Shown here: one piece after another, positions 1 to 56,804 of the stretch | How the letters are laid out: each line of letters opens with the position of its first letter | How positions within the stretch are numbered: the first letter of the stretch is position 1 | Assembly: GCA_012295275.1 (NCBI GenBank) | Contig: CM022670.1 | Span: forward strand, 4,526,001 to 4,590,000 | Source of the DNA: Chrysomallon squamiferum | Lineage: Eukaryota; Animalia; Mollusca | Direction: 5' to 3' | DNA length: 64,000 nt | Translations under genes and position numbers: made by a program | The notes under the pieces: generated by a model | The model's input: the letters and a program-made list of their open reading frames with translations, nothing else | What the model was told of the DNA's origin: nothing | Database searches by the model: none

Positions 1-609
1 TGTTATTGTCTTTATAAGTTGGTAAACAGTATCGGATAGTGTACTTGATCCTTTGCTGTTTGATTTATATTTTTTTTATTTTATTTTTTTTATTTTTTTA
101 TTTATTATTTTTTTTTTTTTTTATTTGTTATGTTTAGATTATGAGACAATTTTCCGATATTATTATTATAAAAATTATCAATGATTTAGAAGAAAAGATA
201 TTTAGTTTTGCAATCAATAATAATTAGTTTTGCTGCTAAATGATATATCTTAGCTATTAAAAAAAAAGAAGAAATAATTATAACTATTATCACAATAACT
301 AACTAACTAACTAACTAAATAAATAAATAAATGACAAAATGATTTATAACAGGTAGATTCTATATAAATTTATTCCACTCGACAAACCATGCAATCAACT
401 TTCTATATTCTATGGCACAAATGGTCCTTCGTATCTTTTAATTTTCAGTTCAGCTCGCTTACCAAACATATATAGATTTTAAAATATTTACATAACAGAA
501 TGTCATTATTATTTCTCAATGTTTCGCAGTTCTTTCCCAACATTAACACCATCTAAAAAAAGACAAGGTCAAAAAAGATTACCCAATATTGGAGATGCTC
601 GGAATAATT

Positions 610-621
610 CAAGATGGCGGC
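610..621 (+). promoter_or_regulatory. YY1/Pho consensus site
   Basis: CAAGATGGCGGC, the full YY1 consensus, inside the first CpG-containing island. Confidence 0.45.
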
Positions 622-1103
622 ATGTTATCAAATATGATTTTAAATTCATAACGCAGCTCAGAGTAAACAGAATGTTTGTATAACATTCTACCGAGTTGAC
701 GAAAATATGACAGTGATCTGACCTTGTTTGAAAAACCATTTTCATTTCTATTTTCTGTTTTTTAACATTGTTACAGATGTTTTATTATTAACAAGATAAA
801 CAAGAGCATGTAGAAATGTTTAGAAATAACAAAAAATCTTAAACAAAGAAACACAAAAATATAATATAATTGTACACACATGCATTAGTGGTAGTGTCTG
901 CGTTAAAAAAGTAATCGTTTACAAAAGTAAGATTACTACTATTACTACTGTTATTATTATTACAACTGCTACTTAACCATTATTAATATAAATGCTTATA
1001 CTATTATTACTACGACTCCTAATATTGTACTACTACTACTACCAACATCACCACAGCCACCACCACGACCACTACTACTACTATTACATACTTACAGGAA
1101 TAC

Positions 1104-1200
1104 GAGAGAGAGAGAGAGAGAGAGAGAGAGAGAGAGAGAGAGAGAGAGAGAGAGAGAGAGAGAGAGAGAGAGAGAGAGAGAGAGAGAGAGAGAGAGAGAG
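1104..1200. repeat. (GA)n microsatellite
   Basis: Pure GA run. Confidence 0.99.
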
Positions 1201-2607
1201 TGCGTCATTAAAAACTAATTTAATTAAAAAACATAAAACAGTCGTTACGAGATATAATACATTATATTCATCCTACGCTAATATATTCCTGCAATCATTT
1301 TTTCAGTTAAATATCATTTACTAATTAATGTACAAAAAAAAAAAAAAAAAAAAAAAAAAGAAAGGGAAAGAAATTTGATGGATAACGAAAATAAAAATGT
1401 AATTACAAGAACGATATCTCAGCTACAAACAGTTTTACCCACACTTTTATTTAACTCGACTTGGAAACATAAAGTAACAAACTGACGAATCAGCCGTTAT
1501 AAAATTGGAAACATATTTCTTTCGGAAAGGAATAAATAAGTCTAGAGGTGTAGGTTACATGTATAAAGTCAACTTTAATTATGTGCAATTCTCGTAATGG
1601 GCATCAGGTGTTTCCTGTTTTATTTTTCTTCTTTTTTTTTTTTCTTTTTTTTAAAGAAAAAAAATCTCATTTCTGTATCGTATTACAGTTTGTTTGTCAA
1701 GATGCTGAAGTTCAAGAGCCAGACTGAGCGTGCTGGGTAGAGTACATTTTGACTGCTGGATGGATTCTTCTTCTGGCATCGTTCTAACATCAGACTGGAT
1801 TACCGAAAAGCATGGTATGTCCTGTCCTGCTTATTTTCCTTGTTCTTAACTGATGAGGGTAACCCATGTAAAGACAACAGTGGCTTTTCAAAATTAATTT
1901 TTGTCAGTGTAATGTGAAATAAAAAGCAAAACAAAATAAAATAAAATAAACTGTCATAAATAATTAAATAAATAATTTAATAATGAACATAAAGGAACAG
2001 TTGTTTTTTGTTTTGTTTTTAAAAAAAAAAATATTTTGAAGGAAATATTTATTTAAAATGATCGGAGTTTCACCAGCTTTAAACGTTTTGTACAGAATTT
2101 GATCTTTCGCAAGAGTTAAAAAGAAGAAGAAGAAGAGGAAGAAAAAAGGTATAACATTTTTAAACTGCTAAGCTAAAAGATATTAAAATTACAAATTAAA
2201 ACATCGGAAAAACACCAAAACAATTCTAAATATCACATGGAGGCGTACTACGCAATACATTTTTTTTTTAATATTTTAAATATGTATTTAAAAATCTCTT
2301 TAAAAAATACAATAAAATAAAAACGATAATTCCAGTAATATATATAACAAAGAGAAGTAAAACTGCTGTTTAACTGACAGTGATTAGTTTTAATGTTTTT
2401 CACACCAGTTGTCAAGTACTGAATCTCTTCGTGGCAATTCTCCTATTCATTCATCTGGTCATCCTCCGTTCGTTCATTCCTTTACTAACCATCATTTAAT
2501 TCACTCATTTGTTCATTCATTCAACATCTATCCATCTTTTCTTTCAGTCTTCTATTCAACATAATAATATCGATAACCTCAGATCGACAAAGAATCAATA
2601 TAAGCAA

Positions 2608-2713
2608 ATTATTATTATTTTTATTATTTATTATTATTATTTTATTATTATTATTATTATTATTATTATTATTATTATTATTATTATTATTATTATTATT
2701 ATTATTATTATTA
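2608..2713. repeat. (ATT)n microsatellite
   Basis: Direct reading. Confidence 0.98.
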
Positions 2714-53488: not shown

Positions 53489-53506
53489 TGACGTCACACG
53501 ACGTCA
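53489..53506. promoter_or_regulatory. Tandem CRE (CREB/ATF) sites
   Basis: TGACGTCA (53489-53496) followed by CGACGTCA (53499-53506). Confidence 0.4.
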
Positions 53507-53644
53507 GCCACGTTTTCTACTTGACTTGATGGATAACTGCTCTGCACACATACCAAGATGGTTGTCTCAGACAATGTACACCTGTACTTAGTTTTGCTGT
53601 AGATGGTATCATCTAGTTAGACACGCGTTTATAATCAGAGAAAT

Positions 53645-53654
53645 GCCGCCATTT
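53645..53654 (-). promoter_or_regulatory. YY1/Pho consensus site
   Basis: GCCGCCATTT on the + strand, inside an island. Confidence 0.4.
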
Positions 53655-55394
53655 CAGTCAGAATTCCAAACACGGTATCTGCAACACAGCAATGCCATCA
53701 GTTGTCACGGTATCTTTTTCACGATACAGTTTCCAAAATTCTGCGTATGAAGTTACAAACAATTCGTTATGAAGACCATTACTGGTCAAGAAATGTTAAA
53801 GAAAAAGCAAAATGAAAATATACTGGGTTTAAATTACTGTACTCTGCATAAAGCTCACACATTAGGATTTAGAATGAGACTAGTCGAACGTCTTCAAATT
53901 TTGACAACAATCAAATCTTTCTCTTTTTTTCTTCATAATGAAAGTAATTTTATTTTGAAAGTCACACTGAAAACTTTCATTAACAAAACATTAGATATTT
54001 ACGAGTACAAGGATTTTATTATATTTATTTAAAATGAAACATCAGAACTAGCAGTACAGAATTTTGAACTCATAACAGAAATTTATAAACAGAACTTGTT
54101 TGTTCTAGATGTCTGTCAAATACAACTATCTTTCCTCTGCTTCTATTTCTCTCTACTCCATCTTCTTTTCTTAAACTATTGTTCGCAGCAGTGAAGTTTA
54201 ACATTAAGTCTACGAGTCATTCTTGCTTGCATGTTCAGCCAATTGTCCTCACAGCATTGTTATCACATCACGTTTTTAAAATTACTGTCATCTAACAGCG
54301 AGAGTAAAACACGATCGGCAAACGTTGGACGCGGATACGGAAGGCAAATGAACAGCCCAATTTGCAGAGGACAACAATTATGTGTAATCGTCGGGGGCTG
54401 GACGTATGGGAATTCAAACAAAATTGTCGACTTATGCTTGACTTACCAGCCACGGAGCCGTTGTCTTTAGGCGGATTTACAAACAGTGTAACTAAGTCAT
54501 TCGTTCAATCGACAACAAGCCGATGATATTGACTCTACCGGGAGGGAGGTGTTTTTTTGTGGTTTTTTTACTGCTGTTTTTTCTTCTTCTTTTTTTTTTT
54601 ACTCTCTCTCTCAGTTTCACAAACTGTTTTTTGATGTAGGAAATCAATTTTGTTATTGGTTGGAGTCTGGTTCACAGTTTGTGTCCTATTGAAAAATAAT
54701 TAGACCCCTCGAGTCTTGCAGATTTACACGTTCTGAAGAAACAGAATAAAATCAAGCAAAATGTTTTATAGTGTTAACTCTTCCACAGAAAGAAAAAAAA
54801 AAAAAAAAAAAAAAAAACACCAACCAAAAACATATTAAGAAAAACTAATAATGGTATTTAAGAAAAAAAAAAATAATCAAAAATGAAATTAGAATAAAAA
54901 GCAAACAGTGATTCCAGCATTTTCTCAAAATGCCTTAGACCAGAATGATTGCAGTGCCCAATAAGCAACTGCCAAACATCCAATATTTGTTAAAGGTATT
55001 GGGGCATTTTACGCGACGGTCAATATTGAATGAAATGAACTGAGGACATTAGCACGGTGTTCTGTTAGCGCTAAGAGAGTTACTCAGGAGCTGGCACCAC
55101 GAAGGCCTTGTCGGATAATATCTCACATTCTCCGATGAGTTTACATATTGGATTATCAACGGCTGATCGTTGCCACCTTTGGTCAGCCCATTGTGTGGCC
55201 TGTGAATGGGGTGTCTGGTTTCAGTGGACAGTGTCCAGATTACACTGGTCATCGCACGAAATTAAATCTCTGATATGTTAGTTATGCGGGATTTATCAAG
55301 TCCATTGAAAAGTCTTATGTTGAATTTGACTTGCCTCGACTTTCAAGTTCATAAGTTCATATTTAAATGCAGCTTTGGTGTTAGAATTTGATAG

Positions 55395-55720
55395 TACTAC
55401 TATTATTACTTTCTCTACCACTAATACAAGTAGTACTACTGCAATAATAATAATTATTATTACTACTGTTACTACTACTACTACTACTAGTACTACTACT
55501 ACTACTATAATATAATCTGATAATACTCTAATAGTACTACCTGTGCTGCTACTACCAGTACTATTAGAAGTACTATCGCAATAATAATATTATAATAATA
55601 ATAATTATTATTATTATTATTATTATTACTAGCAGTAGCTGTGACAGCAGCAGCAGAAGTAATAGTAGTAGTAGTAGTAGTAGTAGTAATAGTAGTAATA
55701 ACACTGTAGTAATAATGTGT
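55395..55720. repeat. (TAC)n(AAT)n(ATT)n(GTA)n compound tract with inverted symmetry
   Basis: Left half is TAC/AAT; right half carries the reverse complements ATT/GTA. Confidence 0.88.
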
Positions 55721-56804
55721 TATTGTTATAAGACAAACTCGATAAATCAGAAAGATATGTATACATCGGTATGAGTGAGATGAGGTTGAGGTGTTGACAA
55801 TGTCGTTGTGAAACCTCCTTCTTAATTGACTTATGGTCCTTCACTGACACATTACAGCTGTTCCTCGCTTCATGCAACCGATTATTGATCCCTTTGTCTC
55901 GCTCTGAGATGACAAATCAAATAATATCGACAGTCATCAAAGAGTTTCTCCGTTCACCAATACTCGAAGGACAACTGTATTCCAGATATCCCCAGTTATC
56001 TCCATTCTCGTTCATTTTCTTCACGTTATACGAAATCACAGAAAGTGATAATATGCATTGTTATTGTGGTCATGCTCGTAAAATTTGGCTGTGGATGGGC
56101 AATTCAATAAGAGCACTCGAGAATGCTTTCGCCTCCATTCATAGGGGACATTAATGTCTTCATTCTCATAGTTATCAGATATTTACAGCGTCATCAGTAT
56201 TCGTAATTCGAGCACATTATTATCATTCTTATCGTTATGCGCCATATAATCACCATTTATACCTTTACGGATCTTTCAACAAGGTAATTATTTGGCCAGT
56301 CAGACTTTTGTTAGTTGTTTCATTACAAATAAATAGCGAACAATTCGGCTGTGAAAATGGCACTGTTACAACTAAAGATACTGCCGATATCTATAAAAGC
56401 TTTCTTAAATCATTTTTTTTTTATTATTATTTCTTTTTATGGAAATGAATACTTTTTGTGCTAAATAGTGAAGGATCATCAGCATTAATAACCAGAAGAA
56501 TAAACATCGGAGTATTCATAAAATTATAATGACAGCAGTAGTAGTAATAATAGCAGATATCAGACACTGTAAGTAGATACAGAATCAGCAGTAAATTGTT
56601 ATAAAAGTGCTTTTTCGTATGTTTTCTTCCTTTTCTTTTCATTTCATAAATAAACAATTGAACAAATAAATAAATAAATAAGTTAATGAACAAAGGTGTT
56701 TTACTTTTGTAATAGTGGTTCTAGTTAAGGTTGTAATTGACTGGTGCTTCTGTAAGTATTTTCATGTTATTTGCTAATAGCCAGCATGATGTATCATCCG
56801 TTCA

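What the first reader, a model, noticed from the sequence alone, without database searches (positions are those of the whole stretch)
380..56400. Quasi-periodic array (about 1.1-1.2 kb) of unique CpG-containing islands separated by microsatellite spacers upstream of a protocadherin
Seen: non-coding DNA alternates between 250-500 bp unique, GC/CpG-richer islands and AT-rich low-complexity spacers. Approximate island centres by eye are 650, 1780, 3000, 4080, 5270, 6480 and 7560 (steps of 1.08-1.22 kb), then less regularly about 9430, 10600, 11980, 13300, 14450, ... 23430, 24750, 26300, 27600, 28600, 29950, 30750, 31480, 32600, 33450, 34950, 36700, 37600, 38600, 39700, 40600, ... 43420, 46430, 47620, 49180, 50760, 52050, 53550, 54350, 55150. 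That is roughly 50 units. I see no homology between islands, so this does not look like a tandem repeat. Known: protocadherins are neuronal self-recognition genes with complex regulation, and 1.1-1.2 kb is about 6 nucleosome repeat lengths. Inference: a beads-on-a-string array of evenly spaced cis-regulatory modules with selection on spacer length, i.e. a possible undescribed chromatin or enhancer ruler.
Basis: partly seen in the sequence, partly recalled or inferred. Interest (0 to 1): 0.85.

Follow-up and report, generated by a model that had tools for sequence, protein, structure and literature searches.

The report
Packed enhancer-like islands with mirrored skew
Upstream of a snail protocadherin gene lie about 50 short GC-richer DNA islands, roughly one per 1.1 kb but with no fixed period, most of them at a point where the strand bias of the DNA flips; they are likely closely packed enhancers transcribed outward in both directions, not a chromatin ruler.

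Summary
The islands are real. There is no fixed period: intervals run 0.58-3.1 kb, with no phase-locking at 1.05-1.25 kb, no nucleosome-multiple quantisation and no sign that microsatellites compensate spacer length. Randomly placed 600-700 bp units reproduce the evenness, so it is short-range packing. Of 5 islands tested against a second species, 3 hold non-coding blocks 82-84% identical. Two islands 41 kb apart are paralogous; one is the gene's probable promoter. Best reading (0.55): a dense enhancer/promoter landscape of a gastropod protocadherin, whose ~1 kb module footprint sets the spacing. Enhancer activity and transcription are inferred, not shown. No genome was held, so locus-specificity is untested. 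The scan's earlier notes hold nothing like this.

The parts
2700..56300 (.). Array of 47 GC/CpG-richer islands (cores about 300-400 bp). Centres: 2892, 4067, 5267, 7517, 8617, 9442, 10517, 11967, 13442, 14492, 16242, 17617, 18267, 19092, 20217, 21017, 21942, 23467, 24767, 26317, 27742, 28617, 30017, 30692, 31492, 32542, 33567, 34942, 36717, 37592, 38642, 39667, 40592, 42117, 42867, 43442, 44492, 46392, 47042, 47667, 50767, 52042, 53017, 53617, 54392, 55117, 55992
   Evidence: threshold 1.0; composition
2400..56500 (.). Polarised flanks: about 100-500 bp each side of an island centre, C/A-rich with A-tracts on the left and G/T-rich with T-tracts on the right (+ strand)
54404..54486 (.). Non-coding block conserved in organism B (14 differences in 83 bp), inside island 54392
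   Evidence: table 8
54671..54727 (.). Conserved block (7 differences in 57 bp), outside a called island; same organism-B contig as the block before, with a gap of 184 bp here and 143 bp there
   Evidence: tables 5 and 8
54963..55238 (.). Two conserved blocks in island 55117: 54963-55062 (18 differences in 100 bp) and about 39 bp from 55200 (end inferred from the joint table)
   Evidence: tables 5 and 8
55808..56283 (+). Probable promoter and non-coding first exon: 454 bp conserved block (55808-56261; 72 differences, 15 gaps, many not multiples of 3) followed by a splice-donor-like site after 56283
   Evidence: donor pattern; role inferred
14389..14542 (+). Paralogue of 55826-55972 (core 14454-14541 is 73% identical over 88 bp, E 1e-6); both carry an inverted repeat TTTGTC-N12-GACAAA; candidate duplicated or alternative promoter
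56908..59655 (+). Large protocadherin coding exon (signal peptide, cadherin repeats, TM segment, start of tail); acceptor-like CAG ends at 56905, donor-like site after 59655

Best explanation
The 54 kb upstream of this snail protocadherin is likely a densely packed landscape of about 50 independent enhancer/promoter-like modules, each a 300-400 bp core with strand-polarised AT-rich flanks that are likely the mutational footprint of short outward transcription on both strands. Shown: the cores, their even but non-periodic spacing, the mirrored skew and its roughly 500 bp reach, and conservation of 3 of 5 cores tested. Inferred: cores are factor-bound open chromatin held by purifying selection; divergent initiation exposes the non-template strand on each side and drives G>C and T>A outward; the unconstrained flanks drift AT-rich and collect microsatellites. 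Because each module with its flanks occupies 0.6-1 kb and modules do not overlap, close packing gives a liquid-like spacing near 1.1 kb, which microsatellites blur. The spacing is a by-product of footprint and density, not a ruler.
For: Skew: non-repeat (G+T)-(A+C), right minus left, is positive at 39 of 47 islands (z 5.7; 0 of 5000 shifts reach it) and at 30 of the 36 reader centres used (z 5.6). Centre-free correlation 0.44, null sd 0.07. G-C skew survives masking of repeats, A/T tracts and low complexity (33% of DNA kept; 38 of 47, z 4.7). It is +0.10 to +0.17 at 100-500 bp and about zero beyond in the 14 long intervals. The gene's own intron has the same sign and size (+0.11) while the upstream region nets -0.002. 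Human enhancer RNA start sites show GC skew codirectional with transcription (PMC3787258, passages); enhancers initiate in both directions in fly, worm and human (bioRxiv 10.1101/224642, passages). Constraint: 572 of 733 conserved bp fall in island windows that cover 38% of the tested stretch, and organism-B contigs run on unaligned beyond the blocks. Motifs: TAATTA 18 sites vs 7.6 expected; TAAT[CTG][AG] 108 vs 72. Spacing: randomly placed units of half-width 300-350 bp give CV 0.47-0.42 (p 0.15-0.59), while half-width 150-200 bp is rejected (0 of 100).
Against: No RNA, ATAC or reporter data were available, so enhancer activity and transcription are untested. Conservation was tested on only 5 of 47 islands, all near the gene, in one sample of one unnamed species. 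AATAAA is not enriched outward (119 vs 147, p 0.10), and the T-A skew weakens once A/T tracts are masked (z 1.0-2.1). A heritable skew needs germ-line or early-embryo activity, or selection, which is not obvious for neural enhancers. The wide-unit null is partly circular, because the units carry their real flanks and cover 33 of 56 kb. 10 of 16 motifs tested were not enriched, and dinucleotide shuffles can overstate AT-rich words. 8 of 47 islands have the opposite skew. No genome was held, so the pattern may be genome-wide.
Confidence: 0.55

Rival explanations
1. Genome-wide sequence-encoded chromatin lattice, like vertebrate nucleosome-inhibitory energy barriers: AT-rich spacers are nucleosome barriers and islands are 2-3 well-bound nucleosomes, mostly without enhancer function.
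For: Similar scale and composition: about 0.65 barriers per kb, GC 26.5% inside vs 42.5% in flanks (PMC6028776 part 1 of 5; PMC4966569 passages). Spacers here have T-tracts on their left and A-tracts on their right (asymmetry 65, null sd 19).
Against: Human barriers are about Poisson-spaced with 153 bp quantisation below 1 kb, and Alu-free barriers have symmetric A/T tracts. Here no quantisation for 160-220 bp was seen (46 intervals, centre error about 50 bp, low power), and the main signal is G/C skew that survives tract masking. The model does not predict island-specific sequence conservation.
Confidence: 0.2
2. Conserved elements with neutral spacers at insertion/deletion equilibrium; the skew comes from selection on oriented flanking sequence (remodeller or factor binding), not from transcription.
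For: Spacing fits a gamma of shape 7.3, and no compensation by microsatellites is seen. The one gap measured differs between species, 184 vs 143 bp. No outward poly(A)-signal bias. That bounded deletion narrows spacer lengths is recalled theory, not simulated here.
Against: The skew is diffuse over many 2-4-mers and matches the intron's skew in sign and size, as a mutational bias would.
Confidence: 0.12
3. One reading: selection keeps modules about six nucleosomes (1.1-1.2 kb) apart.
For: Spacing under-dispersed; weak 1.0-1.25 kb oscillation in repeat-deleted DNA; distances between adjacent conserved elements are reported as constrained in mammals (PMC6161761, abstract and outline).
Against: No phase-locking, intervals 575-3100 bp, no nucleosome quantisation, positive microsatellite/unique correlation; the native sequence, which chromatin sees, is less regular than the repeat-deleted one.
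Confidence: 0.07
4. Islands are bidirectional replication origins, and the skew is leading/lagging-strand bias.
For: The same sign switch is reported at human origins and around CpG islands (PMC2817419, passages).
Against: Those asymmetries run hundreds of kb; here the skew fades at about 500 bp, and forks meeting every 0.5 kb are implausible (inference). Uncalled weak islands in long intervals could mimic the fading.
Confidence: 0.06

Closest known systems
Divergently transcribed enhancers with GC skew (human enhancer-like intergenic hypomethylated regions, PMC3787258 passages; fly/worm/human distal NDRs, bioRxiv 10.1101/224642 passages)
   Same: Intergenic CpG-retaining elements; G>C skew in the direction away from the start site.
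   Different: There a weak average over many mapped elements; here visible element by element (39 of 47) in raw sequence, mirrored on both sides, at about one per 1.1 kb, in a mollusc, with no transcription data.
Bidirectional strand asymmetry at human CpG islands (PMC2817419 passages; PMC2927911 passages)
   Same: Asymmetry switches at the island, with the same sign as the skew switch reported at origins.
   Different: Reach is hundreds of kb at islands about 100 kb apart; here about 500 bp at islands 1 kb apart, in DNA with CpG o/e near 1.
Nucleosome-inhibitory energy barriers of vertebrates (PMC4966569 passages; PMC6028776 part 1 of 5)
   Same: About 1 kb alternation of AT-rich and GC-rich DNA with poly(A)/(T) at the borders.
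   Different: Genome-wide, Poisson-like with 153 bp quantisation; no quantisation seen here, and spacing is under-dispersed.
Adjacent conserved non-coding elements at conserved distances (PMC6161761, abstract and outline)
   Different: Pairwise distance conservation in mammals, not a lattice; distance conservation could not be measured here.
Lophotrochozoan protocadherins (PMC9068888 passages)
   Same: Ectodomain and TM segment in one large exon; 80% identical to a Gigantopelta aegis protein.
   Different: Cephalopod genes form multi-megabase arrays of whole-gene duplicates; this window has one coding exon plus one duplicated promoter-like element without a coding remnant.

Membership tests
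Enhancer / conserved non-coding element cluster | Non-coding | tested here: met
   0 of 87 ORFs >=70 aa pass a Pfam cut-off; 0 of 30 Rfam matches reach the gathering score; frame-breaking gaps in the largest conserved block
Enhancer / conserved non-coding element cluster | More conserved than flanks | tested here: met
   3 of 5 islands tested; 33% of island bp vs 5.7% of spacer bp aligned at >=80%; 42 of 47 islands untested
Enhancer / conserved non-coding element cluster | Transcription-factor motif content | tested here: inconclusive
   3 of 16 recalled motifs at p<0.005, 3 at 0.02-0.05, 10 not enriched
Enhancer / conserved non-coding element cluster | Open chromatin, divergent eRNA, reporter activity | not testable with these tools
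   No chromatin assay available; no RNA holder listed
Periodic nucleosome-multiple ruler | Fixed period or phase-locking near 1.1-1.2 kb | tested here: not met
Periodic nucleosome-multiple ruler | Spacer length buffered against repeat expansion | tested here: not met
   correlation +0.45, partly inflated by missed islands
Periodic nucleosome-multiple ruler | Distance conserved across species | tested here: inconclusive
   one gap only, 184 vs 143 bp, not island-to-island
NIEB-type nucleosome lattice | About 1 kb AT-rich/GC-rich alternation | tested here: met
NIEB-type nucleosome lattice | Distances quantised in about 153 bp steps | tested here: inconclusive
   no signal for 160-220 bp steps on centre distances; 153 itself and border distances not tested
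NIEB-type nucleosome lattice | Genome-wide | not testable with these tools
   no genome held
Vertebrate-type CpG island | GC >50% and CpG retained against a depleted background | tested here: not met
   GC 0.395; o/e 1.14 vs 0.88; thresholds recalled
Tandem repeat / dispersed repeat family | Units homologous to each other | tested here: not met
   one clear pair among 2162 comparisons
Protocadherin | Cadherin_2 N-terminal domain plus cadherin repeats and TM segment | tested here: met
   PF08266 E 3e-18; PF00028, 6 stretches, E 6e-105; hydrophobic segment read from the translation

The most novel reading that the evidence does not exclude
Every regulatory module in this snail fires divergent transcripts in the germ line or early embryo and stamps a mirrored, roughly 500 bp mutational halo that excludes neighbours. 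Enhancer landscapes would then self-organise into a ~1 kb lattice that can be mapped, one enhancer at a time, from raw sequence alone, with a duplicated promoter 41 kb upstream giving the protocadherin alternative starts.
Probability: 0.2. Interest if true: 0.65.

Novelty: new variant of a known kind. Interest (0 to 1): 0.38.

Why it matters
The claimed ruler is not there, so the headline is weaker than scored. What remains is a testable, sequence-only candidate map of about 50 regulatory modules for a neural adhesion gene in a deep-sea snail lineage where chromatin assays are hard. It also shows a per-element skew inversion at kilobase density that my paper searches did not show described for a mollusc; that library lacks most subscription papers and bioRxiv supplements were closed. 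If general, skew inversion would be a cheap enhancer caller for microsatellite-rich invertebrate genomes and a record of germ-line enhancer transcription.

Tried and rejected
Fixed 1.1-1.2 kb period: rejected. A 715-720 bp spectral line (block-shuffle p 0.004-0.074; interval-permutation p 0.02-0.18; Fisher-type p 0.067; absent from the first quarter) and a 1.4 kb CpG bump (p 0.02-0.03 in a chosen band, 0.09 over 700-2225 bp) are treated as chance after many tests, not excluded. Islands as exons or transposon ORFs: no Pfam support (exons under 70 codons would be missed). Known RNA families: none. Protocadherin pseudogene upstream: tblastn of 11 homologues found nothing outside the exon. Third copy of the paralogous element in the window: none. 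MicroRNA hairpin in it: folds at only -7 to -8 kcal/mol. Next-best island pair scores (44-54) exceed the shuffle maximum of 40; the top ones involve islands with A/T runs or GGAT-type repeats as read from the sequence, alignments not inspected. Rows dropped before counting: three 40-43 bp A/T-rich organism-B pieces (54842-54907, 56392-56431), a second contig on 55881-55924 (read as a paralogue), and low depth near 53300 with no listed piece; table 8 was cut (987 rows unseen). The coding exon was barely covered even by the own species, so holes, including the 2 islands without hits, prove nothing. No RNA holder listed. The metagenome scan gave one 27% cadherin locus, unused. No genome held. Earlier-findings look-ups for this feature were empty.
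Full report
Setting. The window is 32.9% GC with CpG o/e 0.95 and 10.9% tandem repeats at standard settings. 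Its one long ORF encodes a protocadherin ectodomain, TM segment and start of tail, ATG at 56908, donor-like site after 59655. The best hits are an unnamed protein (82%) and a Gigantopelta aegis protocadherin (80%), then Haliotis (55%), so this is a gastropod near the peltospirids. A published peltospirid genome has 10.17% tandem repeats and 34.5% GC (PMC7736800, passages), so the microsatellite load is ordinary for the group. No genome was held.

The observation. Islands are 39.5% GC against 31.5% in non-repeat spacer; CpG o/e is 1.14 against 0.88, so CpG mostly follows GC. Spacing for 47 islands averages 1154 bp, range 575-3100, CV 0.41. That is more even than block shuffles (0.57, p 0.004-0.008), significant at two of four thresholds, and CpG autocorrelation has a trough of -0.20 at 350-625 bp that 0 of 1000 shuffles reach. 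There is no period: autocorrelation at 1100 bp is near zero, Rayleigh p at 1050-1250 bp is 0.39-0.61, and successive intervals are uncorrelated.

The ruler. Intervals show no quantisation for steps of 160-220 bp. Repeat and unique length per interval correlate at +0.45, where buffering would be negative; missed islands inflate this. Deleting repeats brings out a weak damped 1.0-1.25 kb oscillation, so repeats blur rather than tune the pattern. Placing real islands at random among real spacer DNA fails with 300-400 bp units (0 of 100) but reproduces the CV with 600-700 bp units, and the trough with 700 bp units (p 0.22; 0.04 at 600 bp). This null is partly circular, but it shows that exclusion over a few hundred bases is enough.

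Islands sit at skew inversions. G-C skew is about -0.10 to -0.18 left of centre and mostly +0.07 to +0.18 from 50 to 350 bp right; A-tracts lie left and T-tracts right. It holds without centres (r 0.44) and, for G-C, after masking two thirds of the DNA. In the 14 long intervals it fades beyond about 500 bp. The protocadherin intron has G-C skew +0.11, while the upstream region nets zero, as expected if transcription causes the bias and runs outward both ways from each island. GC skew codirectional with enhancer transcription is known in human (PMC3787258, passages), divergent enhancer initiation in fly and worm (bioRxiv 10.1101/224642, passages), and long-range switches at CpG islands (PMC2817419, PMC2927911, passages). 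Against: AATAAA is not biased outward and T-A skew is largely carried by tracts. Of 10 strong donor-like matches, 9 lie on the outward side of the nearest island, but simpler donor words are not significant.

Constraint. Contigs of organism B, an unnamed second species sharing next to none of the sampled 31-mers, were laid on 52330-59660 at 80% likeness. Five non-coding blocks align at 82-88% where identity is listed; 4 of 5 lie in islands, 3 of 5 islands have one, and 572 of 733 aligned bases fall in windows covering 38% of the stretch. The contigs continue unaligned into the flanks, and one bridges a gap of 184 bp with 143 unlike bases. This covers 5 of 47 islands and one sample; the rest is untested. 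Islands carry no Pfam or Rfam signal and an excess of TAAT homeodomain-type words (motif names recalled).

A paralogous pair. 14389-14542 matches 55826-55972, the most conserved part of the block before the gene. That block ends near a donor-like site after 56283, and a CAG lies two bases before the ATG; the two closest homologues read FSAM at the same place, which fits the same acceptor (inferred). So 55808-56283 is probably promoter plus non-coding first exon, and the 14.4 kb copy a duplicated or alternative promoter with no coding remnant behind it. Organism B has a second contig matching the same core.

Mechanism and verdict. Most likely (0.55) the region is a dense enhancer/promoter landscape: constrained cores, polarised flanks from short divergent transcription, neutral microsatellite filler, and a spacing set by footprint and density. 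Rivals are a genome-wide barrier lattice like vertebrate NIEBs (0.2; PMC4966569 passages, PMC6028776 part 1 of 5), selected oriented flanks with indel equilibrium (0.12), the ruler (0.07) and origins (0.06). Function is inferred throughout, and why the bias would be heritable is unexplained. This is a new variant of a known kind; interest 0.38. Also seen: PMC7142155 (passages, nothing relevant), PMC6161761 (abstract and outline), PMC9068888 (passages); other papers only as search listings.

Noticed in passing
window 14463-14486 and 55893-55916: Both paralogous elements keep an inverted repeat TTTGTC-N12-GACAAA with different middles, the only two in the window; candidate dimeric factor site or weak RNA hairpin.
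   Followed up: partly
window 30869, 43482, 43577, 47081, 24983: Strong + strand splice-donor-like sites just downstream of island centres; candidate alternative non-coding first exons of the protocadherin.
   Followed up: partly
window 14000-56400: A 715-720 bp spectral line with similar phase in three of four quarters of the array; borderline after correction.
   Followed up: partly
window 59656-64000: GC-richer islands continue into the intron (about 61000, 62400, 63200-64000), so the pattern is not only upstream; the exons for the cytoplasmic tail lie outside the window.
   Followed up: partly
window 44989-45461: 17-bp minisatellite, about 27 copies with a 69-bp higher-order unit.
   Followed up: no
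window 22393-22560: 89-bp near-perfect tandem duplication (98%), recent or an assembly artefact.
   Followed up: no
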